NCBI GenBank assembly: GCA_030390025.1
Contig: CM059436.1
Span: 13,330,001 to 13,394,000, forward strand
From: Squalus acanthias
Taxonomy: Eukaryota
Direction: 5' to 3'
Length of the DNA: 64,000 nucleotides
Under the pieces are notes generated by a model, which worked only from the letters and a program-made list of their open reading frames with translations, was not told the DNA's origin and ran no database searches. Positions 2,481 through 58,501 of the stretch are shown here, piece after piece. A program made the translations under genes and the position numbers. The number at the start of each line of letters is the position of its first letter. The first letter of the stretch is position 1.

Positions 2481-2533
2481 TTAAATGGATTGGGATCGGC
2501 AAGTCAAGAGAGTTGATGATCCAGCTGTTTTAG
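2481..2533 (+). CDS. ADSS2: Adenylosuccinate synthetase (non-muscle isozyme), last coding exon
   Basis: The acceptor ctctttgtgcttgcAG (AG at 2479-2480) is followed by a phase-1 exon TT AAA TGG ATT GGG ATC GGC AAG TCA AGA GAG TTG ATG ATC CAG CTG TTT TAG = (V)KWIGIGKSRELMIQLF*. This matches the ADSS C-terminus VKWIGVGKSRESMIQLF. ADSS2 rather than ADSS1 is inferred from synteny with ZBTB18. The earlier exons lie upstream of the window. Confidence 0.92.
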
Positions 2534-4194
2534 GATTGGTCTTGCCAAGAGGAGCTTGCTATCCCCAGAGTTAACTTCAGCGAGTTCAGATCTGGACATG
2601 TTGGGTCTTCAAATACCAAAATTAGTATTGTTTGTATCTGGCAGAAATGTAGGGAAGCACGCGCTCTGATTTTCGGTGGGGGAGAATGGGGGAGTTATTT
2701 CAAAAGTAACTTGTTGAAACTGCATTCAACATTCAAAAACCTTATACATTTCATTTTATTCAGGGATGGTTTAGTAATCTGCTGTCAATAAGTGTTAAGA
2801 ATTCATTGCTCTGACATATTGAGATTCAGTATAACTTACTGGCACTTGTTTGATTTTAGATGTACATTGGAGTCGTTTTTTTTAATCTAGCCTGAATTGC
2901 TGAATGTTTTTATTAAATTAATAACATTGAATCAAACTAAATGAAAAATTATTCCCTATACTTTGGAAGAATGTAGGAGTTTGTGATTGTTTTTTGGCCA
3001 GAGCTCTTTGACATTGGTTTCTCAGACTGGGGTTGACTATCATTTCCTCGCTTTATTCTGCAGTTGCTCTATTGACGGGGCAAGACCTTTCTGAGCTTTT
3101 TGCTGTGGGAAATGGTGCAAAACCTAATTATGGTACAAGTGACACAAATTGCAATAATTTTCAGACTATAGGCAGTGGATTAGAGGGTCAATACGTGTGA
3201 CCAAAGGGATCATGTGTTTGTCGCAGACAGATTTATTTCAATGATTCTTGCTCAAGGTCATGTACAAGGAAGAAGCAAATTGTACTATTTTATTTCTTTA
3301 AAAATTCTGTTCCACCCACACTTTCTGTTTCTCTAGAAAGGTAACTGACCCCCTCTTTTATGCTAGTAACCAGGAATGATTACAAGGTGGAGATCAAACT
3401 GGGGGTATCTGGTGTGTCGTTCATGGGGGAGGTTTAATTTAATTCTGTTATTTCGTTTTGCTGGCACCAGCAGTCAGGACAGATGTTGGCGAGCAGAGTG
3501 CTGCATGCCATTGAAGCGTAATAACATTTGCATTGAAGGATTAATGACTAGCATAAACTGAATGATTGTCAACAGTTGATTACTGGGAACAATACACTCG
3601 TTAATTATTAAAATCCTAAATAACAATGTACTGCAAATTTCAAAATGACAAAGGTAGGAGCGGTGGGGGTTCTTCCAAGAAGGCAACATTTCAGGTTGCC
3701 GGAGAGATGTCGGCAGCACTTGATCCTTTAGAAAGGATTCAAATGATGCTCTGCTTCCCCCTGCCCGATACAGTAGTCCCTCAGTGTTTTTTGGTCCCCA
3801 TTGTTTGGCGTTTTACTGATGTCAAAGTGCTGTTAGATGGCGGTGAGAAACTCAAACTAGGAAGTGAAGGTAAAAGGAGGGTGGAAATGTGATTCAGAAT
3901 TCAATGCAGAGTTTCACCAAGGGAGAGAGAGGGGAAAATATTGGCAATTCAACATAACTTAGTCACTTAAGTTTCCAGCTTATGAATCATTTGTGGAATA
4001 TGTACCTTTTTGTATGGACAAATCACTGGTCAATGTTGAACTATTGAATGTATTGGGAAAGTCCCAATTTAAATAAGCCTTTTTCCTTCAAACTTTGTAA
4101 CAACTGATTTGCTTTCCAAGCTTGTGGTGTTGTCCAATCCTTCCCATTAGCTCTTTTGTGCTCCCAGTTCAGTGTTGAACCACAACAGCTCAAA

Positions 4195-4400
4195 ATCATT
4201 AAGATCCTCGAATTTTACAGCCCATCGTGCCTGTGTCAGCTCTCTGAAGGAGCTATCCACTTAGTCCCATTCCCCTGCCTTTTCCCCATAGCTTTTTATA
4301 TTTTAAAAATATTTTTCCGCTTCATTTTAAAAGCTATTACGGATTCAGTTTCCGGTAGAGTATTCCAAGTTTTAACAAGCCTCCTGTGTATACTTTTTTT
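4195..4400 (-). mobile_element. Degraded CR1 LINE 3' end fragment
   Basis: cccatcgtgcctgtgtcagctctctgaaggagctatccacttagtccc resembles the reverse complement of the CR1 3' ends at ~17990-18080 and ~25900-25980. Confidence 0.55.
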
Positions 4401-5063
4401 TTAATTGCAAAAAATTCGAATCTCTCCCAACACTGGCACTCACGCAGAAGAACACTTCAGTACTATTTGTAACGCTGGACCAGTACGCATGTCACTTTCC
4501 TAATCTTGCAGAATTCAGCAAACATGTATCCTTGAAGATGAGGAAGGGTGGGGCCTGTAAGTGATGGTTAGTTGCCTGCACCAGCCTGTATAGCATTTTT
4601 AACCTGGTAAACTTCATCCGGTGAAACCCGACACTTGTCCGTGTTCTTTTTTTGTTTAAAAAAAAAATTTGTGTGAAGATATTGTAAAAGCTTCCAATTT
4701 GGTCTGTCCCACAGGTTTGTTTTCATCAGATTTACACGAGATTAATGCAGATTTGCACAGTTTCTTTGCCACGTTAACTGTTCTCTAAAGATTGTTTTCC
4801 TATGTTTCTGCCTACTGAACTGTTCTTTGGAAGAATGTAAAGAACATGTCAGTAACTCTGTTGCACTGTAAATACTTAAGACGGCTGGTGTGCAGGATAT
4901 GTTCTCGGGTGGGGGTGGGGGATCCATGTATAATATGCATGGATGATTAAATTGTATGTGTACAGGCTGTAAGTGTTTTACTTTGTAAATTATGCAACTG
5001 TTGTCTTTTTAAACACATAACTATTGAAATTTTGGGTAGGCTGGTAAGAACTTATCTACAGAA

Positions 5064-5069
5064 AATAAA
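5064..5069 (+). terminator. Candidate polyadenylation signal of ADSS2 (3'UTR ~2534-5085)
   Basis: AATAAA followed ~20 nt later by a U/GU-rich element (ctctttgtctctgtttatttt). Weaker ATTAAA alternatives occur at 2912 and 4946. Confidence 0.5.
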
Positions 5070-5712
5070 TTCTGCAACGTAAAACCCTCTTTGTCTCTGT
5101 TTATTTTGACCTGTGGTCCTTGAAGACAAGGATGTCTTGCATTGTGCTATGTAAGCAGCGTTCCTCAAGTGTTGGAGCTCCTTTTTAACATTGCAGTCAC
5201 TTGGTGGGATTGCATTAAAATGTGTACATGGGTTTAATTGCAGTAATGGCCATGTCAGATTAGTTTTGTGATTGGTTTATCTGTATCTCTCATTCTGCTG
5301 TTGACCAACTTGTGCATTTTGCAGAAACTAAAATTATTACATGTAAATTTTCTCTCTTCATTCCTCTTATTTTGTTGAACATTAGTTAATTGTTTTAGGC
5401 CAGCAGATGATTTTAGAGCAACTGGGTGTACCTACAATGTGTATATGTATAATATACAGTATATTGGTGTGTGTGTGTTTGTGCGTATGCAGATTCTCCC
5501 ACTTGTCCGCTTTCATTCCTTGGAAGAGCTGAGAACCTGGGAAAAACAGTATAAATAGGGTTTACATCGTTTTTCTGAGGTTTTAGTGGCTCTTCTGCCA
5601 GAAGCTACGGCGCGGAGTGAGAACCACCACATATATTCACGTACGTGTCTGTCTGTCTGTCTTATGGAAACTGCAGTGATAACTCTTAAACATACTATCC
5701 CATTTGTATGAC

Positions 5713-6022
5713 AACACGGTGGCATAGTGGTTAGCACTGTTACCTCACAGCGCCAGGGACCCGGGTTCGAATCCGGCCTCGGGTGACTGTCTGTGTGGAG
5801 TTTGCACATTCTCCCCGTGTCTGCGTGGGTTTCCTCCGGGTGCTCTGGTTTCCTCCCACAGTCCAAAGATGTGCGGGTTAGGTTGATTTGGCTATGATAA
5901 ATTGACCCGTAGTGTTAGGGGGGATTAAATATGTGGGGTTACGGGGATAGGGTGGGATATGTGTCGGTGCAGGCTCGATTGGCCGAAATGGCCTCTATCT
6001 GCACTGTGGGGATTCTGTGATT
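5713..6022 (+). mobile_element. HE1-type V-SINE
   Basis: tRNA head (A-box GGTGGCATAGTGG, B-box GGTTCGAATCC), V-domain tgtgtggagtttgcacattctccccgtgtctgcgtgggtttcctccgggtgct, and a CR1-like tail. Confidence 0.9.
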
Positions 6023-8801: not shown

Positions 8802-8968
8802 CTAGACTAACCTTAAAGTGGTCACGTTACATAGTTTCTTGCAGACTAACGCTTGGAGTTGTTCTCTTGCTTTTAACAATTTTATAGGACTTGGATTTAG
8901 CAGACAAGGTTGACCTACAATTTGATTGATTTTGTTCTGATAGTGTGTGTTTCAGCCCAGAATCTTGG
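8802..8968 (-). pseudogene. SPMIP3: C1orf100/SPMIP3 homolog, candidate terminal exon
   Basis: The minus frame reads KINQIVGQPCLLNPSPIKLL...*, against recalled human WNQKLATVSLNPRPLNSL. Acceptor options are exon start 8968 (phase 1, includes an in-frame TGA) or 8936 (phase 0, weak pyrimidine tract). Stop TAG is at 8802-8804. Confidence 0.4.
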
Positions 8969-9010
8969 CTAAGAAGAATTTTCACCTCCTGGTTTAGACT
9001 CCCGTGATTT

Positions 9011-9376
9011 AAGAACATAACATAAGAAGTAGGAGTAGGCCATATGGCCCCTCGGGCCTGCTCCACCATTCAATAGGATCATGGCTGATCTGAACCTAGA
9101 CTCACGTCCACTTCCCTGCCCGCTCCCCATAACCCTTAATTCCCTTATCAGCTAGGAAACTGTCTATCTCCATTTTAAATTTATTTAATGTCGCAGCTTC
9201 CACAGCTCTCTGAGGTAGCAAATTCCATAGATTTACTACCCTCTGAGTGAAGAAGTTTCTCCTCATCTCAGTTTTGAAACGGCAGCCCCTTATTCTAAGA
9301 TTATGCCCCCTAGTTCTAGTCTCACCCATCAGTGGAAACATCCTCCACCCGATCAAGCCCCCTCACAATCTTATAT
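9011..9376 (-). mobile_element. CR1 LINE 3' end
   Basis: ORF 9102-9356 reads TRTRGHNLRIRG...RRNFFTQRVVNLWNLLP, the CR1 ORF2 C-terminus, followed by the tail ...cttatgttatgttctt. Confidence 0.9.
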
Positions 9377-9764
9377 TTGGGGGGGGATTACCTTGTGGGC
9401 CTGCTTCTGACCTTCAAATGTAAACATTCTTTGTATTCCAAGATCACCCCAACCCGTGCTTCCATCCTTCATTGGTTACATTATTCTTGTGTTTTTATTG
9501 TGCTTATCACGAAAGTTTTTATGTTCTGCTTTTTGGAAAACAACCCAGGAGAGAAACCTTGTTACGATACAATGACACAGAGTTCTGTAGGCACTGTCCC
9601 TGAATTATAATGTCAACATTTTTTTAAAAGGACAATGTCCTGCGACTTCTCTTCTCCCTTCCTTGTTGTCAGCCCGGGCTTACTATTGCAGTACATGAAC
9701 AATGCCTCAATTGGAAAATAACACAGATGCTGCAAGGCAGGCGCGGTACTCTTGCCATATTTAC

Positions 9765-9936
9765 CAGGGTTGAGATAGAAGCTGAAAGCTTCCTGGTAGG
9801 TTGTCTGGATCCACTGCTTGTTCTATAAATATCTTTCCAAACTTGAACATTGCGTAAAGTTTGCAGGTCGAAGCTACAAGCGTGTTTAACCGCATTGGTC
9901 AACTGCGACTGCATCACAGAACTTGCTGGTTTAGTC
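9765..9936 (-). pseudogene. SPMIP3: C1orf100/SPMIP3 homolog, internal exon with apparent frameshift
   Basis: Strong acceptor (tcttttcttccattttactttgatttcaAG) and a GTAAAT donor. The frame continuing from the previous exon gives (R)TKPASSVMQSQLTNAVKHACSFDLQTL, 27 residues to D.QTL, the same spacing as recalled human (R)APRP...LDQQTL. A shifted frame gives KQWIQTTYQEAFS, against human PWYKETTYRRDYS. Confidence 0.65.
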
Positions 9937-10849
9937 CTTGAAATCAAAGTAAAATGGAAGAAAAGAGAGTATCTGCAACATTCTTTCAAAACAATTAAAA
10001 TTGTCACAATGGACCATTGTAAAACTGCTATTTAATTTGTTAAAGGTCCCAACTGCATATATATTAAAACTGACTCTGCTTATTATGTGTAGTCCACCCC
10101 AGATGGATTCACAGTAATCCTCGCAATTTGATTTACTTTGATCACTGAACAATCTGCTTTTAAATTGGTGTAATCCCAATTGGTGTTTGATTCTAATTTG
10201 CTCTTTCTGAAATCTGATATAGGCAAATTCTGATAAATCTTTAGTACAGTTCGTCTTTGGAAACTTGGAGTTCAGCTTTCCACTGTTTATCCGTGAATAA
10301 TGGAACATTTTATTGAGCTAACTTCTATGTGGTGTTGACTAGAGACTAACTAATAACTAGTTAATGGAATCTACTCTTAATTCAAACTTGATTAATTCAA
10401 ATTCTGAAAATTTCATTTTGTTAGCACTAAAATCAAACTTTGCTACTGTTTACTTAGTTCAAATCATTGGATAATTCTAATTTTTCTAGTGTAAAAAAAA
10501 ATGGCCCTGAATTATCGGGTAAGAGTTAAAACTTTCTTTCCTGCCGCAAATTGTCCAGCGGAAATCCGATGGAACTGCCTGGGAAAAGGGCTGGATGCGC
10601 AGAATCCCGACCTTGGTTGAGAAATCCTGTCCGGCCTTGCTAGTCACAGAGCCTCCACCTGTCCCTTACAAGGCTGGTCACGTTGGAGGAGATGGGGCTG
10701 GGGGCTGAGACTCCCTATACTGGGAGTTTTCACTTCCCAGGCTCATAAGGGACCTGACAATACAGGAGGCTGGTATGCTAAGTCAGATGAGGTCTACTAG
10801 CCTCCTAAAGGATGCAGGTGAGCCCCATCAGGAATCTAGGCTAGGGAAA

Positions 10850-11015
10850 TTTAGCATAAATGCATTTAAGGGAAACCTAGACAAGTACATGAGGGAGAAA
10901 GGAATAGAAGGATATGCTGATAAGATCAGATGAAGTAGGGTGGGAGGAGGCTATAGTGGAGCATAAACATCAGTATAGACCAGTTGGGCCGAATGTCCTG
11001 TTTTTGTGCTGTAAC
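10850..11015 (+). mobile_element. CR1 LINE 3' end fragment
   Basis: aatgcatttaagggaaacctagacaagtacatgagggagaaaggaatagaagg...gtggagcataaac, same family as 32348-33750. Confidence 0.8.
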
Positions 11016-12267
11016 TCTACGTAAAAGTGTAACAAATGATCTGGACCCTTGAAGACGTGGAAATCTTTTTTAGTCTCAAAGTGCCCTCTTACATGGGGCT
11101 GAAGGTGTGGGCAGAGGCTGTAAGAGGTTTCCATGGAGGCCAAACGACGGAGTTTCTAGCAGCATAGAGCAGGTGGGTGCCTGAGATGCACCTGTAGCAA
11201 TGTGGGTGCCTGTCAACCTCATGCAAATGTGGTGCCCTCGCAATGACCCAGAAAACACCAGAAGGGGCAACGCTGGTGTAATTGTTGGGATTGTGGCCAG
11301 CAAATTTTCCACCCCGCTATTTTTTTTTGTATCTTCTAAATGACTGTTGGATTTCTTTGCCTTCTGACTGGTCTCTGCTAACCACAGGATATCAGTCAAG
11401 TGGTTAGAAAAGTCCACAGATCAGATCCAGGACAATGTAGGCGGGACCAACTGAGAGGTTAAGTGGAAAGAATTCTAACCATTTAAGAGTAAGTAACTGA
11501 AAGTTAGTTGTAGTAACTGTAAGCGTTTAAAAATTAACATTTCATTCTGAAATCTTAACTGTGTTGGAGGCCTGAGGCAGGACAAGCCTGGGACTCAAGT
11601 TTAGAAATAAACCCAGTCAGTGATATCTGCTGCTGAGGTCTACCTTAATCCCTATTAAAAAAAAAACCCTGTAAAATTCTGCTGAGTACAGATATTTTAA
11701 ACTATTGCTGGAAATTGTTCATAATGAAGCCTAACATAAATAGGTATCAAATACAGTTCAGAATTTCCTTGGCAACAATGTGTAGCATTACCTGATCCAC
11801 TCTTGCACTAATTCCAGTTTCCACAGCATTCGTAATGGCTTCATTGAGGAAATTGTCCCATTAGTGCTGAATTATAGGTAGTTTGTGCCCTGGGCCTTGT
11901 TCAAGCTTACTTTACTTGCTCTTAATTGCCCCAAGAGATGGAAGATGTTCATCCTTTCTGTCTGTGCCGAATTTAAAATCAGGTCCCAGAAGAGAGAGGC
12001 AATATTCTAGATCACGCAATTCCCTGTTCTACTCTTAATTCAAAGTCTTTAAATTTAATTGATCTGATCATTTGTTTTAAATGCAAAATTCCTGCCTTGC
12101 TGTGTTATTTAGGTTGTTTAATTAAAAATTATTGGATAATTACTTTTTTTTTTATTGCAATAACAACTTTGAGTTATCAGGAGGACACTAATTGCATTTG
12201 CACACTCTGAAGAGGATCAATTCTGTAGCTTTCTTAGGACGATGTGTACATGCGTTGGTTGCCTTAC

Positions 12268-12351
12268 CTATTCCCCTGTGAACAAGTAATGTGTACTCAG
12301 CCTATCTGACCAGGATACATGCCCCAAACATCTCTCCCATGCCAGCTCGTG
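12268..12351 (-). pseudogene. SPMIP3: C1orf100/SPMIP3 homolog, 84-nt exon with premature stop
   Basis: AG acceptor (12353-12352) and GTAAGG donor (from 12267). Translation TSWHGRDVWGMYPGQIG*VHITCSQGN(R) aligns to recalled human [27 protein letters not shown]. The TGA at 12297-12299 replaces Arg. The phase-2 end joins the 9936 exon in frame. Confidence 0.8.
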
Positions 12352-12455
12352 CTGTCGAGAATAAGAAACATCCATCCATAGATTCTTCCACATTCTTAAC
12401 AACAAAATGTCTATTGTATTATAAGTAGCTAAGACAATCCAAACTTCAAAATACT

Positions 12456-12951
12456 GGCCCTGAATTTGCGGTCGGCGGTGTAGCTAAGGAGTACAGCACT
12501 GACCTCTGCACAGAATCCACACTTACCTGCTGCGAACCCCACTTCGAGAAGTTGCTTTGAAACGCTACGGAGTTGTGCGCAGCATAATGGGTCACGGATC
12601 CCAGGGGCGCACCATTGTGCGTAAGCGGACCTGGGATCACATGGGGCGGTGCTCTTTTCACTAGCCAATCAGGAAACATTTCAACTCGACGTCAAAGAAC
12701 TTGTAAATTAAACGGTGAGATACTAATTATATTTATTTGACAAGTACAGTAATTGGCTTTAAAAAGCACAGGGAATACTTTGGAGTAAGTACAGTTATTT
12801 ACTGGAAGTCTGCAAGATTTTTTTTTAAATTAAAACAATCTCATCCCTCAAACCGAGCCTTTACAGCTGCCTGGTAGGTTCTTTTACATGTTTGTTTTTA
12901 ATTATACAATTTTTGAGAGTACGCCGTCATGCCGACCACAAATACGGGGCC
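12456..12951. mobile_element. Non-autonomous DNA transposon (PIF/Harbinger-like MITE)
   Basis: 21-bp TIRs GGCCCTGAATTTGCGGTCGGC / GCCGACCACAAATACGGGGCC (3 mismatches), with flanks ACT / ATT consistent with a 3-bp TSD. CpG-rich interior. Confidence 0.7.
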
Positions 12952-13419
12952 ATTATGAAATGTTTGACCAGAGGTGCACATGCGTTTGTTACTACTATAT
13001 ACCCTGTAATAGCTCGACAGATACTGAAGTGAAGAAAGTATGAGTAATTATTGGGTATACCTCACTAAATAAACAGTGGATTTATTGCTCATCAGTAAAT
13101 TTGTTTTTTAGTTGAACCTCAGCACAAATACTCAAAGCAAAAGAAATAACTATGTTGGCGAAGGGACTATGATGGAGCAATATGTTTGTATTGTATCTTC
13201 ATTCATTTTTTGGAACAAAAGTAGCCACAACTCTGAGTGGATGGTGATTCCTTACCAGAGACAAGAGATGGCTGACTTTTTTTTTTACTGTTGTCACAAG
13301 TAGGTTTCCCCACAAGTGCCAGCATCAAGCATCAGGCTTTTCTGCCTCCTCGTAGAGGCCATTTGTTATATTCGCAGTTTTCCCAAGTTGCTTCTAGAAG
13401 ATTTACCAGCTCCAAGCTT

Positions 13420-13670
13420 GATTTCTCCCAACACTCCTCGCTCATCTCCCTGCGTCCATGCTACATAAACTCCATCACTTCACCACCCAAATCCTGTTCC
13501 GCACTGTGTCCCACTCCCCTATTACCCACATCCGGACCTCCTTCCATTCCCCAACGCATTGAATTCAAAATCTTTGTTCTTGTCCTCGTCATAAATCCTT
13601 CCATAGCCACGCCCCTGCCTACCTCATCAAGCCCTAAATGCCAGCCCATCCAACTCTGGCCTCTGTGATT
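13420..13670 (+). mobile_element. Degraded L2 LINE fragment
   Basis: Reads ...PQRIEFKIFVL..., like the L2 ORF2 C-terminus at 97-516. Confidence 0.65.
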
Positions 13671-14169
13671 CTCAGTACAGATTAAGTTTGGAAAATTCAC
13701 TGCACAGGTAATGAACTCTGTACTTGTACTTGCAAATGAGGATGGCTACATACAAAATGAGCTGGGTAAAGTTCTTCCAGCTCCAGTATCAAGTGATAGA
13801 AATGTGCTTTGTTCTAAAGGGACAATGCACTTCCACTTGTGAAGAGTGGGCAAGCTGCTACAAAAGACTGCTCTCAAAATAAGATCATGATAGCTGCCCA
13901 AGGATTCCCATTCCCTGGGCACACCTGGCTTTATATCTTGGGTTTCTTTCGGAGCCTATAGGATAAAATGTTAGGGAAGGGAAAACTCTGGAGAAAACAT
14001 TGGGAAGTTGCCATTAAATCTTTAGAAGCAAAGTTGCTCCAGGAACATGGGAACCCAGCAAGCCGTGCTATAGACTGGGGATGATGATTTCCCTGCCTGT
14101 AGGGTGGTTTTGGGGGGGTTGTGTAGCTGAGGCCAGTTTGAAAACCTGCATTCTCCTCTCCACCCACCC

Positions 14170-14850
14170 ATAGTTACACAGAATTTACAGCACAGAAAAA
14201 GGTCATTCAGCCCAACAGCTCCATGCTGGTGTTTATGCTCCACATGAGCCTCCTCCCATCCCTCTTCATCTAACCCCATCAATATATCCTTCTATTCCTT
14301 TCTCGGTCATCTAGCTTCCCCTTAAATGCATCGATGCTATTCGCCTCAACTACTCCTTGTGGTCGCGAGTTCCACACTCTAACCACTCTCTGGGTAAAGA
14401 AGTTTCTCCTGAATTCCCTATTGGATTTATTAGTGACGATCTTATGGCCCCTGGTTCTGGTCTCCATCACAAGTGGAAACATTTTCTCTGCGTCTACCCA
14501 ATCAAACCCTTTCATAATCTTAAAGACCTCGATCAGGTCATCCCTCAGCCTTCTCTTTTCTAGAGAAGACTAGAGCCCCAGCTTGTTCAATCTTTCCTGA
14601 TAAGTATAACCTCTCAGTTCTGGTATCATCCTAGTAAAGATTTTTTGCATCTTCTCCAGTGCCTCTATATCCTTTTTATAATATGGAGACCTGAACTGTC
14701 CGTAGTACTCCAAGTGTGGTCTAACCAACATTCTATACGAGTTTAACATAACTTTTCTGCTTTTCAGTTCTATCCCTCTAGAAATGAACCCCAGTGCTTT
14801 GCTGGCTTTTTTATGGTCATATTAACCTGCGTTGTTTATTTTAGTGATAA
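14170..14850 (-). mobile_element. CR1 LINE 3' portion
   Basis: ORF 14279-14515 reads ...TRTRGHKIVTNKSNREFRRNFFTQRVVRVWNS; VRPHLEY-like sequence near 14700-14730. Confidence 0.9.
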
Positions 14851-16857
14851 GCTGCTTTCTATGGAGTCACTCCAGGATGCACCTGAATTTTCCCCATTGG
14901 TCACATCACTGAAACACCTCGAGGGCTACATGTCTGTTGGGGAGGAAAAATACTTATATCTTCTATAAAATGGGAGAGTACTTTGAACAAAAGTACTCTC
15001 CATAGTTTCTTTCTCTCGCACATTAGATGCTTGGTCACATTTACAAATATAAGCACACAGTCACTTCTGGCTCCCCATGGAAATAAATGTATTACCACCA
15101 AACTCCTCTGCCATACGGGATTGGCTGCTGTGATACTACCCAGTTGATGCCAGCTCCGATCCAGAGTAATTAAAGACTCACTTTTAGATTTGTGCTTCCA
15201 CATCAAGCAAAATTCCATTTGACTAATTTTCCGCCAATGTTCTTGAATCCATTAGAGCAGCACTACACATAGATGAATAATCAATTTGCACTTTCTACCT
15301 CTACTTACTCATATCTATTTTCCTGCTAAAATTCGCCGTCAGAAATTTTGGACCCCAGATGTTTTTCCCTGTCGGGTGAGAAGGAAAGTGTGTCATGTAC
15401 TTTGCTCCGAGTGTGATCAAAAACCTGCTATAGTCAGAGACCTTGGAGCAGGTTGCTTGCCCCTCGGCCAGGAAATAAGCAATGAGTGGGGGGAAAAGCT
15501 AGAGGTGGTGGAAAAATAAACACTTGTTCGTATGCACGCGTAACTTACGAAGGTGCAGAAGGGCAGCACGTGGCCTGCAGACTGTGCTTAAAAGTGCCAC
15601 ATGCTGAATTAAAGTTCTGCAACCCAAAGTATTAAACGTGCTACTCCGAACATTACAGGAGAGCATAAATTAATGTTGATAAAGGAAGGTTTCGTAACCT
15701 TATTTTGTCTCATGGAATTTGTCACACTCTTGTATGTGACATGTAATTTATTGCACGGTCTCATAAAATGACAGGTATTTGTCGCACTCAAAAATCACGG
15801 AGAGAATTTGATACTGAATGCAAAATGAGTGCTGCAGCTCACGGCACCCTGCAGCCCTTGCGAACTCGCTCCCTCTGCCTCACACAGTGCAACCAAATGC
15901 TGCATCATTCTTGGAATCCGTAAATATTCAGAGTTTTTCTTTTTCTTTAAATCAGCGAAACCTTTTCAGCTCCACTTTAATCCTGCGACTAAGCATCAAA
16001 ATAGTATTTTCATGGTCAGCAAACTGACCCCAACATTGCCCAGTCTTTAAATACTTGGCAGCTCCCGTCTGCCAGCAAAACCTCTCGTCGAAACCAGCAA
16101 CCAACTCATTATTTACCAAAAGAGACATTCATTTTTTAAGAAGACAATTGTACAAAAAAGTAGGTAATAAGATGAGACACACCCAAGGGCAACAGTGCCG
16201 ACTGCAATAAGTCATCAGGTTGATCCCTCGAGTTTTCTGGTTGCTAAATATCATTCACGTAGCCAAAAAAAAACCTCCATGTATGACGACCTTTAAATAT
16301 GCCAGAGTGGTCAATGCAATGTAAAAGACTGTACCTAATGGATACGTTGCTTGCAGTGTTGGGAACCTGGTCTTTGGATTCTTTTAACTTGATTGTCGTG
16401 TCTGGTCCTGACATCCTTTCCAAGAGAAAATATGTCGAGAAGATCACGACCAGGATTTCAGCCGACTTGTGTGCAGAAAATTGTGAAAGTTAAGGAAAGT
16501 CTCCCAGTGATGTATTTTCTTTTAGTCCTCTTTTATCAAGTAACAGGACACTGACTGCATCAACTGTCGCTGTTTCCTTTGTCATGGCAGTATGGATATT
16601 TGATGCTGAAATTACCTCTATGGTTATTTGATCCACAGTCTGTTACAACTAGCAAGATCCAGCTTCAATGATAAAAGATTAAAGGGTAGAAATGACTCTT
16701 CTGACGGTTAATATGTTGACATTCCTCTGTCAGCTATTTTAACACAGGAGTTCACCTGTTTATTTTGAATGGATTAATATCTGTACTAAAGGAGCGGAGA
16801 GGGGAGTGCTATATGTCTGCTAATATCACCAATAGTAATTCTTAATCGTATATTCTC

Positions 16858-32146: not shown

Positions 32147-33972
32147 ATTGCATTTATATGGCGCCTTTCACAACCTCAGGAAATCCCAGGCAAATACTTT
32201 ATTCCTCCCCAAGAAGTGGAATTGCAGCAGTCAGTTTGTCCACAATAAGGTCCCACAAACAGCAATGAGAAAAACAGCTAGTTAATCTGTTCAGTGATGT
32301 TGGTTGAGGGATACGTGTTGGTCAGGACACCTTCCCTGCTCTTCTTCATAGGATTACATAGGATATACGGCACAGAAACAGGCCATTCGGCCCAACCAGT
32401 CCATGCTGGCGTTTATGCTCCACTTGAGCCTCCTCTCGTCTTTCCTCATCTAAATCTATCAGCATAACCCTCTATTCCCTTCTCCCTCATATGTTTGTCC
32501 AGCCTCCCCTTAAATGCATTTATACTATTCGCTTCAACCACTCCCTGTGGTAGCGAGTTCCACATTCTCATCACTCTTTGGGTAAAGAAGTTTCTTCTGA
32601 ATTCCCTATTGGATTTCTTGGTGACTATCTTATATTGATGGCCTCTAGTTATGCTCTTCCCCACAAGACCAAATATTCTCTCTGTATCCACTCTATCAAA
32701 ACCTCTCATAATCTTAAAGACCTCTATTAGGTCACCCTTCAGCTTTCTATTTTCAAGAGAAAAGAAACCCAGCCTGTTCATCCTTTCCTGATATGTATAC
32801 CCTCGCATTTATGGTATCATCCTTGTAAATCTTCTCTGCACCCTCTCCAGTGCCTCTATATCCTTTTTATAATATGATGACCAGAACTGTACGCAGTACT
32901 CCAAGTGTGGTCTAACCAAGGTTCGATACAGGTTTAGCATAACTTCCCTACTTTTCAATTCTATACCTCTAGAAATAAACCCTAGTGCTTGGTTTGCTTT
33001 TTTTATGGCCTTGCTAACCTGTGTCGCAACTTTTAGTGATTTGTGTATTTGTACTCCGAGATCCCTTTGTTCCTCTACCCCACCTGGACTCGCACCCGCC
33101 AAGTAATAAGTGACCTCCCTATTCTTTCTACCAAAATGTAATACCTCACATTTATCTGTGTTGAACTTCATTTGCCAATTATTTGCCCATTCTGCAAGTT
33201 TATTAAAGTCCTCCTGTAATTTGTTGCAGTCCTCCTCAGTATTGACTATCCCCAATTTGGTATCTTCCACAAATTTAGAAATTGTGTTTTTGATTCCAAA
33301 GTCTAAATCGTTAATATAAATTGTGAACAACAGTGGTCCCAGCACTGATCCTTGTGGAACACCACTGCTACTGTGAATATCTACCTTTTACCCCTACTCT
33401 CTGCTTTCTGTCTTGAAGACAGCTAGTTGTCCATTCTGCTACTTGTCCCCTGACTCCACATTCTCTGACCTTGTTCATCAGTCTATTATGGGGTATCTCT
33501 TCCCTAGATTCTTTTAAAATGCGTGGGTGCAATCCATCCGGACCAAGGGTTTTATTCTCTTTGAGTTTGATTAGTTTATTTAATATATCCCCCTTTTTAA
33601 TTTAAATGCACTTATCTCATTACTCATCTCATCATCCAATGTCATGTCCACCTGTTCTATCTCCCTGGTAAATACTGAAGCAAAATAATTATTTAATATT
33701 TCTGCCATCTCTCTATCGTTACCTGTGGTATTATCCTGTCTATCCCTTAATCTTCGAGTAGTGTCCTGGGGTCTTTTACTTTTGCCTAAGCAGGCCGATG
33801 GGGCCTCAGTTTAACATCTCATCCAAAAGACAGCACCTCTGACAACACAGTATTCCCTCATAACACTGAAGTGTCAGCTTGCATTATGGGCTCAAATGCC
33901 TTAGTGGGACTTGCACCCACAACTTTGTGACTCAGAAAGACGAGAGTGCTACCACAGACCCAAACTGACACA
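32147..33972 (-). mobile_element. DeuSINE split in two by a CR1 insertion (32147-32347 and 33751-33972)
   Basis: The 3' half ends at ccctgctcttctt(c) and the 5' half resumes at tcttcgagtagtgtcc. Intact copies read ccctgctcttcttcgaaatagtgcc. Confidence 0.75.
32348..33750 (-). mobile_element. Younger CR1 LINE with RT C-terminal half
   Basis: ORFs 32809-33345 (LGPLLFTIYINDLD...KFVEDTKLG...VRPHLEYCVQFW) and 32446-32808 (RRNFFTQRVMRMWNSLP); FADD is altered to FVED. Confidence 0.92.
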
Positions 33973-43194: not shown

Positions 43195-44771
43195 TTATTT
43201 CCAGAGTTCTTGCGAGCTCTCTTCTATGGTCCAGTCCCGCATCGCAGGCAAGTTAAGTGACTCCGTTTTAACAGAGAGTGTGTTTATCAGCTCACAGTGA
43301 AATTTCCGAATGTGTCTGTACAGGTCACCCGACTGCGTGAACCTGCGCTCACACCACTTGCATGCATGTGGCTTTTCCCGGGTGTGAACAACCGCGTGAC
43401 GGCTCAGGTTGTGCGAATACTGGAAACTCTTCCCACATTGAGTGCAAGTGTACGGCTTTTCACCTGAATGAGTCCGCTCGTGTCGTTTTAAGGTGTACAT
43501 GCACGAAAAAGTCTTCCCACACAGCGAGCAGGTGGGAACGTTGACGTCGGTGGCAGGCTTGCTGCGGAGGCCATCCTGCTCTCGAAAGTGCGTGCTCAGG
43601 TGGATCTGCAGAATATGCGGGCTAGGAAATACTTTGTTGCAGAGGGGACACATGAAGATTTGACCGGCCGAGCCAAGTATATTAGAGCAGTAAGGGAGCA
43701 AGCTGCTGTCCATGCTTCCTTCCATCTGGGCTCCATCGTTCTCTGGGGTGATCATCTCATCGTCGCTGGCTCGATCCTCTCGGTCCATCTCACTTGAAAC
43801 AGAAGCTTCTCTTCTGACGGACACATGGAGCGAGTCGTAACGAACCCTGTTCATAGTGCTTGCACCGTCTTTCACTGTGCTACTCTGTTCCATATCAAAG
43901 TCATTAGTGCTGCTTCCTTCCTCGTCGGAAAACATTTCTTTCTCTACTTTAACCTGCACCAGGTTATTTCTGGAACCGTCCCCATGGGGGGAGACATAAG
44001 GGTGGCTGGCATTTTCTCCCCCTGACAGCCCGGACTTGACAGACAAATCCAGCACACAGTCAACATCTGCTGAATCCTTAATGGAGTTGGCAGACCTTTG
44101 GGACAAAGGCCCTGTTGAGCTGCAGGGACTGGACACTGTTTTTCCAGCTGTTACTGCATGTGCCTCAACCTCCACGCCAGGCTGAGTGATGCCTGCTGAG
44201 TCAGAGGGCAATCTCATCCACATGTTCCCAGATTCAATAACTAGGTCCCTTTTGCTCGATTTTTCCTCCTCGGTTTCGTCTTCCTCGCTCGCCAGCTCCC
44301 CCACCACATGCGCGCTGCTCACAGAGGAGATCTCCCCTTTATCGGAACAGCTCAAGGCATCTTCTTCTTTCTTGGTGCTGTCCGCTTCTGTACTTGATTT
44401 TTCTTTCAGCTTCTTTTTGCAGACTTTCACGATGTCGTACATGTGAAGGTAGCTCGCAGCTGCAAGTACGTCCTCAATAGGCAAATCTTTGAACTGGAGT
44501 TTCCCTTCATACATGAATTCAAGGAGGAGAGCGAAAGCTGGGGCTGTAACAATATCGCTGTTCAGATGAACAATGTCCCTTTTGTCCAGCTGGTCCTTGT
44601 AAAAGAGATGGAAGTACATGCTACACGAAGCAAGCACAGCACGATGGGCTCGAAACTGGGCATCTCCAACCAAGACAGTGCAATCACAAAGGAAACCTTG
44701 ATGCCTCTGCTCACTCAGACACTGGAGCAAATGTCTGCTGTGGTCTGGAAACTCCATACTGTCTTCATAAC
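43195..44771 (-). CDS. ZBTB18: Zinc finger and BTB domain-containing protein 18 (RP58/ZNF238), main coding exon
   Basis: N-terminal BTB domain ([28 protein letters not shown]...), VLDLS CtBP-type motif, four C2H2 fingers, C-terminus ...SSQELWK. The acceptor tgtctgctacAG lies at 44773-44772 and the exon starts GT TAT GAA GAC (GYEDS). The in-exon ATG at 44757 gives a 520-aa protein. Confidence 0.97.
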
Positions 44772-45113
44772 CTGTAGCAGACAAAGTTTGTTAACATTTA
44801 CAGAAATAAATAAGTGCCACAAAAACAGCAAAGCCCCAAAGTATCCTGCAATCTACAGATAAAAGTTAACAGAATAGAAAAAAAAACATTTCAACAACAA
44901 ATTGTTTTGTTGCTGCTCTAGTAGTGCATACAGGGGAGGGAAAAACACGTAAACTGCCACAAGACTCAAACTCAATCACATTAAGTGTCCTGTGTCCCAA
45001 TCTCTAATCTTTAAAATGGCTAAAAATAAAGATTACATGATAGTCAGTAAGGTACTGTTGATCAAATTAGATGCCTAAAAGGACAGAGACAGGACGAAAA
45101 CGAAGCTTATAAA

Positions 45114-45193
45114 CATCTGATACAGATGACTATGGCCATATGGCAGCTGCTGCCCAGATAAAGAGATTAAAGAATGGAGTGCGATTACAGCTG
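45114..45193. promoter_or_regulatory. E-box cluster upstream of the ZBTB18 coding exon
   Basis: CATCTG 45114, CAGATG 45123, CATATG 45137, CAGCTG 45144, CAGCTG 45188. Confidence 0.55.
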
Positions 45194-45879
45194 TCTGGGC
45201 AATTCCACGCGTCGCAATCTGCGAATCCCAAATTAGTCACTATCCCCACAAACTCTTAAGAAAAAAATTAGCTTGTACGAAGAGCAATGATCTGTCAACT
45301 CAGAATAAACACAAACACTCTCATACAAAATCCCTAGCAGTATTTGCAAAAAAAAAATTATTTTTTTTTTAAAAGGAAAAAATAATAATCCCCCCTACCT
45401 GCAACAGGAATAAAAACAGATCGACTTCTCTTGATCAGTCCCCAAAAGAACAGCTTCAACGGTGCGCTAAATCTTTGTGACTCCGGTCTGTCAAGTTTAA
45501 AAAGGCAGACTGAAGAGGAATGATACCGGCACACGGAGCAAGATCACACAAAAAAAAACCAGTAATGCCAGACTGTCAGCTGCTCTGACATCACTTCAAA
45601 TGGAAATGCTACCTCCAGCTGTGCTGCTTTTTAATGCCATATGTTACTCGTGTCGTGTTTGCCGCTGCTGCCACCAATCTCACGTTTGAATACATTATCT
45701 GCTACAAAAGGGAAGAAAAAAAATCTCTTCCCCCCCCTTAAAATAAAAAAAAACAAATAAAGTACAAGATAGTCTCTCTTCCCCCCCCCCCGCCCCCCCA
45801 CACCCACCCACCCCCCCAACCTCCTTTCCCTTCTCCTTTAAATTTTCTTTTGTTGCCAAAAATATCCACTTCACTTGAA

Positions 45880-47060
45880 ATGACACACACAAATAAACTG
45901 CGGCCGCAGAGCACTGTTGAGAGAGAGAGAGAGAGAAAAAAACGCTACAGGGCGACCTGTTAAATGTGCTGCAGCAGCAGCGGCAGCAACAGCAGCGATC
46001 CTCAGTGCATGGTGACGGCAGTCAAACCACAACACACACACACAGAAAGAAAAGTAACAACAGGCTGCAGCCGCTGCTTCCTCCTCCTCCTCTTGTCCGA
46101 CGGAACGATCTGGGCTCCCGTTACCAGCAACAACTGAGAGATATGGTGGTGGTGGTGTGGGGGAAAGAGAGTAACATTTTCAAAAACAGTGCAACTACGC
46201 GCCGCTTCTGGCAACGCTGCCTCTTTCCCCCCACCTCCTCCCCTCCTTTTCACCCTCCTCCCTTTCGTAGTTGTTAAAGAGGAAATCCATGAGGATTTTT
46301 TGGATACTTACAGGAAGCAATAATTTTTTTTTTAAATAAGGAAGGGGGAGGACACTTTTTTTTCTGCCTCGGGAACAGCGAGTGTAAGTAGGAGGAGGAG
46401 GAGGAGGTGGGGGAGGAGGAGAGAGCCAATGACTTTCAGGACTTCAATGGGTGAAACACACACAGTGAAACAGACAGGGCGCTGGGAATAAGTGCGGCCA
46501 GATGTTTGGAGAGCTGTTGCTGTGGCCCTTGCTCTTCCACCTACCTTGACAGAGGAAGTGTGAGTGACATCACATCTCCATTGAAGTCTTTGGGCCGACC
46601 ACACCAACAACAACAAAAATTCGCCGGGAATCGGCCAGCAACCTTCCGAAAATAATAAAAAAAAAAATTTAATATAAAGTCCGGGATCCCGCCAGCCAAT
46701 GGGCTGAGAAAGCGGGCGGCGCTTCCGCTCTCAGGGTAGGTTGTTTCGGAGTAACCGTGAGCAAGCAAAAGAAAGGGGGGAATTTGCGCGTCTTCGGCAG
46801 GCTGGGATGCATCTCGGGACTTGTAGTCCTCGTTCACTTGGGCGAAGAGTCTTTAAGTTTTGCTCACCCTCGCCCCTTCACAACGCCAGGGCGATCTTTC
46901 AAGTTGCAAAAAAAAAAGAGCTGTAAAGCAGGTTTCTCTGAAGATTTGCACACACACAAAAAAAGCGGAAGCCTAATTTTTTTTCCGGTTCTTTCCAGCA
47001 GCCCACTTAAGAAAATGGTCAAAAGTTTACGTGCGTTAACACGCAATCGATAATCAAACA
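45880..47060 (-). promoter_or_regulatory. CpG-enriched ZBTB18 promoter / 5' exon region
   Basis: Local CpG retention, CCAAT boxes (~46426, ~46696), GC-box-like GGGCGG, a ZNF143/THAP11-type ACTACAAGTCCCGAGATGCA (minus, 46808-46827), candidate minus-strand splice donors (exon ends 46545 and 46312), and simple repeats (GA)n, (CAG)n, (GAG)n. Confidence 0.65.
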
Positions 47061-48370
47061 TCCAGGGCTGAAGATTTGAGAATATTTCAAAATATAAAAT
47101 CACTATAGGAACGGGAGAACATGACACAAAGCACAGGATCACATGTTTACAGATGTTGTAAAGTAGGTCACTCCACTGCTGGAAACTTGCAACCCATGTT
47201 CCTTTTGTCTTTTTAAAAAAAAAATATTTTTGCAAAAAGATTTTCTCCAAATTTTCAATCCTTTCCAGTTAATCGCCAGCATATGTTCTCCTCCAACTGG
47301 GACTGCCCAGGTTGCAAACGTGTCCATGACTGCTTTCGATGTTGTTCTGAGACCACTGTTACTAGTCTGCAGGAGGCACAATTAAACCTGGATGACACCA
47401 GTTGTCTTTACCTGAAATAACAAAATAAATCCTCTTCTGTATGGTGCACCATTTGTGCAGCTCACACGTAATGGCGAAACTCATGCAATTAAGGCAACTA
47501 AATTAAAATAACTAGACATTCCTGGCGGCAGATTTCACCATGGCCGCTGTCAATGTCATTCGGGATTGATAGCAAATCGCACAGTTCAAGCAGAGTGGGT
47601 TTCATAACCAGCTTTTGTGTTCCCCTCTCAGAATAGTAATCTGTTGGACGAGTCCAGCCGAGAACTAACAAAACTCACCCAACTGAGTTAAGTCTGCAGG
47701 ACAGACAGACCTCGGGCTTTAACTTGGTGACCTTATATTTCAGAGTCAACTGATCAACTGCTTGTGTTCCAGACCAACCTGCACTTGCTATTTGCTTTAA
47801 TAATTAAGAGTTAATTTCAGGGCAATGAAAATTTTCCAATGGCATTTATTTATGCAACATGAGCTTGGCATGCAACAGTCTCCTTTTTTTTCCAGTTCTC
47901 ATTTGATGGTACTAATTGAAGCCTTCCATCCTCCAAGCTGGTTAACACAAATTTCATATAATGCTATTAAATTTCATTTTTTTGGAGGCGGGAATGGGGA
48001 TCTTTGGGAAGCAACTGATTGGCTGTATCAGCAATTTATCTGCCATTTTCATTTGAATATGTATACATTTTGAAAGTGAATAAGTTATCTGCGTGGTTTT
48101 GGAATATGCTATTCCACAAAGGTGGACATACATGAAAACTAGGGGACGCTGACATTCTAGGAAATTTGGGACTCATATCACCACCTTTTTGTCAGCTGCT
48201 TTTGAGATCCTAGCTAAAGTACCATAAATATCCTTTATTTAAAAAAGTCAGAATTGGTAACCGCAAAACTAAACTAAACAGACATGTTTATTTAATGCAA
48301 AGTACTAACAATATGAAGTCAAACCTTACCAAAGTTGTATAAGAATTGATGGGGGGAGAAAGACTGTACT

Positions 48371-57265: not shown

Positions 57266-57572
57266 AAGGCTGATTTTAACCGTGCCTACCCAGTTCGCGT
57301 TTGGTGCCATTTTACATCACTTACCGTAGTGCCAGGGACCATTCTCTCGAGTCCTCGGTGGCCACTTCCTGCTGCAAGATAGCCCACTCCCGCCTGTCAG
57401 CCGACCACCTGACAATTCCCGCCGGTATTGGTGGGGGAGCCCATCCTGCAACATGTTAATGAGGCCCGGGAATTAAAACAGACTGGGCCTCACGCCCACG
57501 CTGCAATTTGCACTTCCCACCCGCCCTGGCTTCCACACGCCATACTCACACGCCACGTTAAAATCGGGGCTT
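57266..57572. mobile_element. Possible degenerate MITE
   Basis: GC-rich segment bounded by the inverted core GATTTTAAC (57272-57280) / GTTAAAATC (57557-57565). Confidence 0.45.
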
Positions 57573-57608
57573 TGATTACCCATATAGTGAACCACCCTTA
57601 AAGATTTG

Positions 57609-58501
57609 GGGGGAAAAATTCAGTTGGTTGCACCTCCCGTTAGCGCCTTAAGAGGGCGCTAATGGGGCGCAAAGCATCTAGCGCCGAGGCGTGGCGAAGT
57701 TTGCGCCGCTCGCGAAATTAACTAGACATTTTGCGGCGGCGCTAAACACTACCGCCACGATCTCCTGCGCCGGCAGATCATGACGTCACTCGAGTGCGCA
57801 ACGCCCCGGTATCGCCCCGGAGCGGATATTGCGTGGCGCCCCCTGCCTTACCGCCTGACGCTAGCAACGACAGGTTGAGGGGAGCGTTCTGCAGTCATGA
57901 AGGGAAAGGGGGAGCGCTATTTAAAGGTGACCGCTTCCTGCCTTTTATTGTTGGTGCCATTTTTGAACTACGCATTCTGAGAGAGAGAGGGAGAGACTTC
58001 TGGAGAGATTCAACGTTGTGTGAAGGAGTTTTGGGTACTGAGCAGCACTTTGCAGGTTCATTTTGATTTGCCATTCCTTGTATCAATTTAGCAGAGACTG
58101 TGGGGGCTGCACTCTGAGCTCTTTGCCTGGTACTCTCCATTGTTCTTTATAGCAGATTTGATGTGCAGGTCTCTCCAGGCCGAGATTCAAGGCTGCAATG
58201 AGCAGGATGTGGATGGAAAGCAAGATTAACCATCCCCTTTAAGAACTGGCCCGTGCCATTGTGTGTGTGTTCCATTGCTGACTGACATTACATGAGCTTC
58301 GCCAGCGCTCTGAGGTAGCGCCTCGCTCCTCGGCCTTTGCGCCTTAAGACAGGTGTGAAGCACCTGATATAGCGCTGCAATCACCTCCAGGGGCGATAAA
58401 AGTCAAGTTTGCAGTCGGTGGCGATAATTAGCGACAGGCGCTAATCTTTGCGCCCGGCCGATAATTGCGCCCCAAATGGGGCGATACTGAATTTCTCCCC
58501 C
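57609..58501. mobile_element. Non-autonomous PIF/Harbinger-like DNA transposon (893 bp)
   Basis: 16-bp TIRs GGGGGAAAAATTCAGT / ACTGAATTTCTCCCCC (1 mismatch), perfect 3-bp TSD TTG (57606-57608, 58502-58504), and CpG-rich subterminal GGCGC repeats. Confidence 0.82.

What the first reader, a model, noticed from the sequence alone, without database searches (positions are those of the whole stretch)
8802..15005. Unannotated, apparently inactivated C1orf100/SPMIP3 (sperm microtubule inner protein) gene between ADSS2 and ZBTB18
Seen in sequence: an 84-nt exon (12268-12351, minus) with clean AG/GT sites encodes HGRDVWGMYPGQIG*VH. It splices in frame to a 172-nt exon (9765-9936) carrying D.QTL and, in a shifted frame, W..TTY...FS. 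A candidate last exon with LNP.P lies at ~8802-8968. Established (from recall): human C1orf100/SPMIP3 contains QGRDVQGYYPGQLARLH, LDQQTL, WYKETTYRRDYS and SLNPRP, and lies between ZBTB18 and ADSS2 on the ZBTB18 strand. Inference: the gene predates the chondrichthyan-osteichthyan split and carries two disabling lesions here (a probable CGA>TGA at 12297-12299 and a frameshift near 9815-9830). That would be lineage-specific loss of a sperm-axoneme inner protein, recent enough that the splice sites survive.
Basis: partly seen in the sequence, partly recalled or inferred. Interest (0 to 1): 0.82.

Follow-up and report, generated by a model that had tools for sequence, protein, structure and literature searches.

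The report
Broken sperm-tail gene between ADSS2, ZBTB18
A probable shark genome carries what looks like a broken copy of SPMIP3, a small sperm-tail protein gene, in the same place as in humans, which hints that the gene is older than its mammalian record and can be lost.

Summary
The gene call mostly holds; the dating and scope do not yet.

An 84-nt AG/GT exon (12351-12268, minus) has one hit in Pfam (DUF5530, E=0.0038, below the family cut-off) and one in the PDB (mouse SPMIP3, E=0.055). It lies between an ADSS2-type last exon and ZBTB18. An in-frame TGA (12299-12297) aligns to SPMIP3 Arg39.

The next exon (9936-9765) has no database hit. Its only Mn microtubule-binding unit sits 4 nt from the position published for SPMIP3, in a shifted frame (3.5% of shuffles do as well). 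That supports a frameshift at 9823-9805.

New here: an upstream exon ending at 12527, with the best minus-strand donor, in a CpG-rich patch. Its in-frame ATG meets a TAG at codon 7. The proposed last exon and the 15005 boundary are unsupported.

Best reading: a decayed SPMIP3 ortholog (unitary pseudogene), perhaps still transcribed. No relative from another shark was retrieved, so "lineage-specific" is untested. Surviving splice sites do not show a recent loss at shark rates. The clade and the annotation state were not verified.

The parts
12500..12700 (-). CpG-rich promoter-like patch: CRE-like TGACGT at 12694, reverse CCAAT at 12669, loose X-box-like site at 12563
   Evidence: 12 CpG in 12501-12700 against 1-3 per 100 nt in the adjacent bins; o/e 0.85 for 12501-13000. 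The motif patterns are recalled and weak on their own: 7 loose X-box matches in the window, and a stricter 14-bp pattern does not match here.
12527..12640 (-). Probable first exon (5' end not known). It holds an in-frame ATG at 12585 followed by TAG at codon 7: a possible decayed start region and third lesion.
   Evidence: The donor at 12526 ranks 1 of 3423 minus-strand GTs. CAGGTAAGT occurs once in the window, 0.41 expected, 175 nt upstream of the next exon. The ATG puts the conserved Gly at codon 25, against 26 in mouse. No Pfam or PDB similarity.
12268..12351 (-). 84-nt phase 2-2 exon matching SPMIP3 residues about 22-49
   Evidence: Pfam PF17670 E=0.0038; PDB 9v10_Ka E=0.055; donor rank 8 of 3423 and acceptor rank 60 of 4244.
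12297..12299 (-). In-frame TGA, premature stop
   Evidence: Seen in sequence. It aligns to Arg39 of mouse SPMIP3 and the match continues past it.
9765..9936 (-). 172-nt exon, probable middle of the gene
9805..9823 (-). Interval holding the inferred frameshift (net loss of 1 or 4 nt)
   Evidence: Offset from the His codon to the Mn unit is 206 nt against 210 expected; the TAG at 9825-9823 bounds the shifted frame. Inferred, not aligned to an ortholog.
9784..9804 (-). Mn microtubule-binding unit [TS][TS]x4[YF], out of frame
   Evidence: Signature from PMC10973386 section 8; SPMIP3 Mn at 95-101 in its Table S1; the only match in the joined exons.
8802..8968 (-). Candidate last exon; not supported
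   Evidence: Acceptors score -5.3 (8968) and -7.4 (8914); the 8968 reading stops after 5 codons; LNP.P occurs 4 times in the window; no Pfam or PDB hit.
2481..2533 (+). ADSS2-type last coding exon (synteny anchor, convergent)
   Evidence: PDB hits to adenylosuccinate synthetase C-termini.
43195..44771 (-). ZBTB18 main coding exon (synteny anchor, same strand), intact
   Evidence: 531-codon open frame; BTB and C2H2 domains; best PDB hit ZBTB18; acceptor seen.

Best explanation
This is the ortholog of SPMIP3/C1orf100 at its ancestral site between ZBTB18 and ADSS2, and it no longer encodes the protein: a unitary pseudogene, possibly still transcribed. SHOWN: SPMIP3-like coding sequence in a canonical exon at the syntenic position, broken by an in-frame stop. 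INFERRED: (1) The intact gene ran first exon (donor 12526), 84-nt exon, 172-nt exon, then a last exon. It made a protein of about 145 aa that held the inner wall of sperm doublet microtubules through its single Mn unit, as mouse and bovine SPMIP3 are placed in sperm doublets. (2) One lesion knocked it out, probably tolerated because sperm inner proteins overlap in function. Further lesions then built up neutrally: the TGA, a frameshift that puts the Mn unit out of frame, perhaps the TAG near the start, and decay of the last acceptor. (3) A transcript today would give only short peptides (7 codons from ATG 12320), or a frame from ATG 9914 that lacks both motifs, and would probably be a nonsense-mediated-decay target.
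For: Pfam and PDB hits fall on the same residues; control 0 of 54. By my arithmetic, E=0.0038 over 24736 families times about 3000 pieces in the interval gives about 5e-4 for a family named in advance by synteny. Flanking genes. Human neighbourhood: deletion tables list AKT3, ZNF238, C1orf100 and C1orf100, ADSS, C1orf101 (passages of PMC3198697, and PMC6219057). Mn unit at the expected offset. None of 14 AG acceptors at 10000-9800 and neither of 2 donors gives an open frame from the 84-nt exon to the Mn unit. Against assembly error: one lesion is a substitution, the shift interval has no run longer than 2 nt, and the 1.6-kb ZBTB18 frame is intact. Dispensability of relatives: Spmip8 knockout mice are fertile, and SPMIP6 and SPMIP9 are reported not needed (PMC12808527 passages).
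Against: The Pfam score of 17.5 bits is below the curated cut-off of 25, and the PDB E-value is only 0.055. Only about 20 of about 145 residues are aligned to a real SPMIP3. The 172-nt exon has no library hit and weak splice scores; its position test is 3.5%, and an open frame of 38 codons arises in 13.5% of shuffles. The N-terminal 20 residues are not recognisable: a 7-residue motif from a published mouse primer scores at most 20 of 34 anywhere, and 15 in the first exon. No last exon was found. No reads, second haplotype, RNA or other shark genome were available, and the rest of the genome was not searched for an intact copy.
Confidence: 0.72

Rival explanations
1. SPMIP3 is functional in this species and the lesions are an assembly error or a null allele on one haplotype. 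The 'frameshift' could be a mis-assigned exon, leaving the TGA as the only defect.
For: The 172-nt exon lacks a library hit. Splice sites and a CpG-rich promoter-like patch are intact. Only one sequence was seen.
Against: There are two, perhaps three, independent breaks within about 330 coding nt. The first exon offers no in-frame ATG without a stop before its donor. There is no homopolymer at the shift, and ZBTB18 is intact.
Confidence: 0.1
2. This is a dead remnant, but the species keeps SPMIP3 function through a duplicate or relocated copy elsewhere, so no function was lost.
For: Nothing positive; only 64 kb were seen.
Against: The remnant sits at the ancestral syntenic site. No second copy within the window (self-BLAST).
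Confidence: 0.08
3. Chance resemblance: an intergenic or lncRNA exon that happens to look like SPMIP3.
For: Sub-threshold scores; no support for the N- or C-terminal parts.
Against: Two libraries give the one family that synteny predicts, on the predicted strand and inside a strong AG/GT exon; control 0 of 54; motifs follow in order in the next exon.
Confidence: 0.05
4. The locus is maintained as a different product, either a spliced testis lncRNA or a 78-codon peptide in another frame from ATG 12679. That would explain why the promoter and splice sites survive.
For: Best donor in the window and retained CpG; a 78-codon alternative frame across the first two exons.
Against: Neutral survival of these signals is expected at the estimated divergence. 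ATG 12679 lies among the promoter-like motifs, probably upstream of the start site. No Rfam match.
Confidence: 0.05

Closest known systems
SPMIP3/C1orf100 (mouse chain 9v10_Ka, 145 aa; Pfam PF17670 DUF5530)
   Same: Same position between ZBTB18 and ADSS2 and same strand as ZBTB18 (human strand recalled); 9 of 20 identical over residues 25-44; a Mn unit at nearly the same offset.
   Different: In-frame stop at the Arg39 position; Mn unit out of frame; N-terminus and C-terminus not recognisable; no product expected. That PF17670 is the C1orf100 family is my recall, backed by the matching coordinates.
Mn-repeat microtubule inner proteins (MAP6, SAXO1/2, SPMIP6, SPMIP9/TEX37, TEX36; PMC10973386)
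   Same: A minimal [TS][TS]x4[YF] unit is present.
   Different: A single unit that cannot be translated here. The pattern alone is common: 217 matches in the six frames of the window.
Unitary pseudogenes (disabled single-copy genes at the ancestral locus; concept from general knowledge)
   Same: Exon-intron structure kept, syntenic site, stop and frameshift.
   Different: Absence of another functional copy, and an intact ortholog in a sister lineage, were not shown.

Membership tests
SPMIP3/C1orf100 ortholog | Sequence similarity to SPMIP3 in the N-terminal conserved block | tested here: met
   Sole hit in the PDB (E=0.055) and in Pfam (E=0.0038); 0 of 54 controls.
SPMIP3/C1orf100 ortholog | Pfam PF17670 curated cut-off (25 bits, whole protein) | tested here: inconclusive
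   17.5 bits from one 27-residue exon. The joined gene model could not be scored. Other pieces gave no hit.
SPMIP3/C1orf100 ortholog | Position between ZBTB18 and ADSS2 | tested here: met
   human neighbourhood from passages; human strand recalled.
SPMIP3/C1orf100 ortholog | Mn unit near residues 95-101 | tested here: met
   Present at predicted 93.7 but in a shifted frame; 702 of 20000 shuffles do as well.
SPMIP3/C1orf100 ortholog | Recognisable N-terminal 20 residues and C-terminal exon | tested here: inconclusive
   No match found, but short diverged pieces fall under the HMMER filters.
SPMIP3/C1orf100 ortholog | Placement in a gene tree, or reciprocal best hit | not testable with these tools
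   No full-length relatives were retrieved.
Functional SPMIP3 (sperm microtubule inner protein) | Open reading frame of about 145 codons | tested here: not met
   TGA at 12299-12297; no tested splice form reaches the Mn unit.
Functional SPMIP3 (sperm microtubule inner protein) | Testis expression and presence in sperm doublets | not testable with these tools
   No RNA or proteome data.
Unitary pseudogene | Disabling lesions at the syntenic locus | tested here: met
   Stop shown; frameshift inferred.
Unitary pseudogene | Lesions fixed in the species; no intact copy elsewhere; intact ortholog in relatives | not testable with these tools
   One 64-kb sequence only; no eukaryotic genome collection was available.

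The most novel reading that the evidence does not exclude
SPMIP3, so far resolved only in mammalian sperm in the papers I saw, was already a sperm-doublet protein in the first jawed vertebrates. It was lost long ago across a broad group of sharks, not in one species, in sperm whose tails are braced instead by two helical accessory columns (PMC11856307 passages). The old testis promoter may still drive a non-coding transcript. Slow shark evolution would then preserve a readable fossil of sperm inner-protein turnover. A mild hint: an intact relative at 70% identity or more would have been found in 96% of simulations if it were a library representative, and none was. I could not show that the library holds shark proteins at all.
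Probability: 0.2. Interest if true: 0.55.

Novelty: new member of a known kind. Interest (0 to 1): 0.35.

Why it matters
If the window is from a cartilaginous fish, it pushes SPMIP3 back to the ancestor of jawed vertebrates and gives a natural knockout of a sperm inner protein for which my searches found no knockout study. It bears on the view that sperm doublets gained complexity by accretion (PMC11779644 passages) by showing that subunits can also be shed. The weight is modest: loss of small, apparently redundant testis genes is an ordinary event, and mouse knockouts of several SPMIPs are fertile. Gene databases, which I could not query, may already list shark orthologs.

Tried and rejected
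SEARCHES FOR RELATIVES
- Word-index search with the first frame of the 172-nt exon: 9 candidates, none with E<=10.
- Word-index search with the shifted frame: no candidate.
- HMMER over 1.84 billion representatives with the first frame: 2 hits, P0001 (2109 aa) and P0002 (1319 aa). Both are singleton JGI/IMG proteins, one called hypothetical and one unnamed; rejected as unrelated on length and source. They were not scanned against Pfam because those calls failed.
- ESM Atlas with the first frame: no usable hit.
- The 84-nt exon, the best-conserved piece, was not searched against the large protein collections or the Atlas, so relatives detectable only through it stay unchecked.

A FRAME SLIP OF MINE
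- The pieces starting at 9821 (protein 3) were in the unshifted frame and say nothing about the Mn frame (found). They were redone from 9822. One of three homolog searches was lost to this.

OTHER PARTS OF THE GENE
- Upstream coding exon elsewhere: of 50 donors between 12.4 and 43.1 kb, 38 (those with at most 2 stops) were scanned with no DUF5530 hit; 12 were dropped.
- Last exon elsewhere: 16 of 38 acceptor readings were scanned, none hit. The 22 dropped were near-duplicates or lay below 5950.
- ATG at 15003 as the start: no usable donor and no hit.
- Rescue by alternative splice sites or by skipping the 84-nt exon: it does not restore the Mn frame.
- Stop read-through: it would not cure the frameshift.

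CLADE AND REGULATION
- Exact look-up of the short ZBTB18 protein: not in the collection. The SINE paper's supplement was unreadable. The clade therefore stays recalled.
- Rfam and ARAGORN: 0 matches.

NOT RUN
- No fold or complex job: the product is broken and no alignment was available.
Full report
OBSERVATION. The two exons are there as described: 12351-12268 (84 nt) and 9936-9765 (172 nt), on the minus strand, with AG/GT ends, joined in phase 2, and a TGA at 12299-12297. With X at the stop, the 84-nt exon has a single Pfam hit, PF17670 DUF5530 positions 24-45 of 141, E=0.0038, 17.5 bits against a cut-off of 25. It also has a single PDB hit, 9v10_Ka 'Protein SPMIP3', residues 25-44, E=0.055, 9 of 20 identical, with the stop opposite Arg39. 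9V10 is the mouse sperm doublet model (PMC13066092 passages). As a control I scanned 54 other splice-site-anchored pieces from the interval: 38 of 50 upstream donor readings and 16 of 38 downstream acceptor readings. None hit DUF5530 and one hit any family, at E=0.14.

SURROUNDINGS. An adenylosuccinate synthetase last exon lies at 2481-2533 (+). ADSS1 and ADSS2 score alike (E=1e-4 and 2.1e-4), but the exon-encoded residues agree better with ADSS2. ZBTB18 lies at 43195-44771 (-), intact, with best PDB hit ZBTB18 at E=5.6e-89. Human 1q44 deletion tables list AKT3, ZNF238 (ZBTB18), C1orf100 together and C1orf100, ADSS, C1orf101 together (passages of PMC3198697, and PMC6219057); the human strand is recalled. 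The family hit is thus the one that synteny predicts. None of the candidate exons overlaps a within-window repeat. That the source is a shark or ray I take from recalled SINE and LINE families; no call tested it.

THE SECOND EXON. It has no SPMIP3 hit in either frame and weak splice scores (donor 101 of 3423, acceptor 256 of 4244; the scoring weights are rough and from memory). PMC10973386 gives the Mn unit as [TS]-[TS]-x4-[YF] (section 8) and places SPMIP3's at 95-101 (supplementary Table S1, file 1 part 1 of 6). The joined exons contain exactly one such unit in three frames, at 9804, which is 206 nt from the His codon against 210 expected, and it is out of frame. Shuffled exons do as well in 702 of 20000 cases, and in 12 of 20000 if a Tyr in third place is also asked for, a condition added after the fact. 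A TAG at 9825-9823 in the shifted frame confines a single frameshift to 9823-9805. I rate this exon probable, not proven.

175 nt upstream of the 84-nt exon is the best-scoring donor of the minus strand (12526; 1 of 3423; exact 9-mer once in the window, 0.41 expected). It closes a CpG-rich patch with CRE-, CCAAT- and loose X-box-like motifs. RFX2 and CREM drive spermatid genes, and RFX sites cluster at start sites (PMC4498915 passages), but these motif matches are weak: a stricter X-box pattern misses the site. Joined to the 84-nt exon, ATG 12585 is in frame and puts the conserved Gly at codon 25 (26 in mouse), but codon 7 is TAG and the peptide shows no similarity to SPMIP3. It may be a decayed start and a third lesion. 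No better upstream exon was found.

WHAT DID NOT HOLD. The last exon at 8802-8968 has a poor acceptor (1678 of 4244), the reading from 8968 stops after five codons, LNP.P occurs four times in the window, and there is no library hit. The 15005 boundary has no support.

MECHANISM. Most likely this is a unitary pseudogene. The intact product would have been a small luminal protein bound to the doublet wall through one Mn helix; Mn units bind between tubulin pairs, and SPMIP3 is listed as sperm-specific in mouse and bovine doublets. Here translation ends at or before the TGA. None of 14 acceptors or 2 donors tested opens a path to the Mn unit. Loss is plausible because mouse Spmip8 knockouts are fertile and SPMIP6 and SPMIP9 are reported dispensable (PMC12808527 passages). 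Assembly error is unlikely for a substitution plus an indel outside a homopolymer, next to an intact 1.6-kb frame, but reads were not available.

AGE AND SCOPE. One or two neutral lesions in 249 nt imply about 0.02-0.08 substitutions per site, with 95% limits of 0.001-0.3 and assumed indel ratios of 0.05-0.15. At about 1e-3 per site per My (PMC5499810 passage) that is tens of My. At 7e-10 per generation (PMC10587355 passage) it could be hundreds. Ten splice bases survive d=0.1 in 37% of cases, so intact splice sites do not show recency. No relative was retrieved. Simulation says a library representative at 70% identity would have been seen in 96% of trials, at 60% in 63% and at 50% in 25%. This leans slightly against a close intact shark ortholog in the library, but I could not show that the library holds shark proteins, and the best-conserved exon was not searched there. 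'Lineage-specific' is therefore open.

LITERATURE. Five searches bear on prior reports: SPMIP3/C1orf100 (36 papers, 30 listed); gene, family and mouse identifiers (10 of 10 listed); shark gene loss with axoneme terms (1, on tektins); inner proteins with cartilaginous fish (0); synteny terms (4). In the listings and abstract openings I saw no report of SPMIP3 in cartilaginous fishes, of its loss, or of a knockout. What I saw of each paper: PMC10973386, passages, section 8, supplement searches and one supplement part; PMC13066092, passages and a supplement search without hits; PMC4498915, passages and a supplement search without hits; passages only of PMC12808527, PMC3198697, PMC6219057, PMC11779644, PMC5499810, PMC5838959, PMC11856307 and PMC10587355; PMC6357514, listing only. 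The paper that named the SPMIPs (PMID 37327785) is not held and I saw none of it; its supplements, and the figure alignments of PMC10973386, may show the taxonomic range of SPMIP3. The supplement of PMC5499810 could not be read and bears on the clade.

VERDICT. The feature is real and probably correctly named: a disabled SPMIP3 ortholog, a new instance of a known kind. Confidence in the pseudogene reading 0.72; interest 0.35.

Noticed in passing
No link to the gene was found.
   Followed up: partly
window 12597-12638: 14-nt inverted repeat, 86% complementary, inside the probable first exon.
   Followed up: no
window 12679 to 12268 (-): ATG 12679 opens a 78-codon frame across the first exon and the 84-nt exon, in a frame other than SPMIP3's. 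It is probably upstream of the transcription start and was not searched.
   Followed up: no
window 57500-58500: Strongest CpG patch of the window (o/e 1.05 at 57501-58000), with a TGACGTCA palindrome at 57781 and the top-scoring minus-strand exon candidate, 57976-57852. It could be a regulatory element of ZBTB18 or a repeat.
   Followed up: no
window 44772-47300 (-): The ZBTB18 main exon has a phase-1 acceptor at 44771, but the short upstream coding exon of the long isoform (recalled from mammals) was not obvious. Donor candidates lie at about 45399 and 46545.
   Followed up: partly
window 2534-5700 (+): About 3 kb without within-window repeats after the ADSS2 stop, probably a long 3' UTR.
   Followed up: no
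window, 31 intervals: 14% of the window is within-window repeat, including SINE-like copies (e.g. 1120-1568, 5709-5964) and reverse-transcriptase LINE fragments (e.g. 14169-14848, 32218-33082). I recall these as shark-type families; not verified.
   Followed up: partly
window 1-64000: No Rfam match at the gathering threshold and no tRNA gene.
   Followed up: yes
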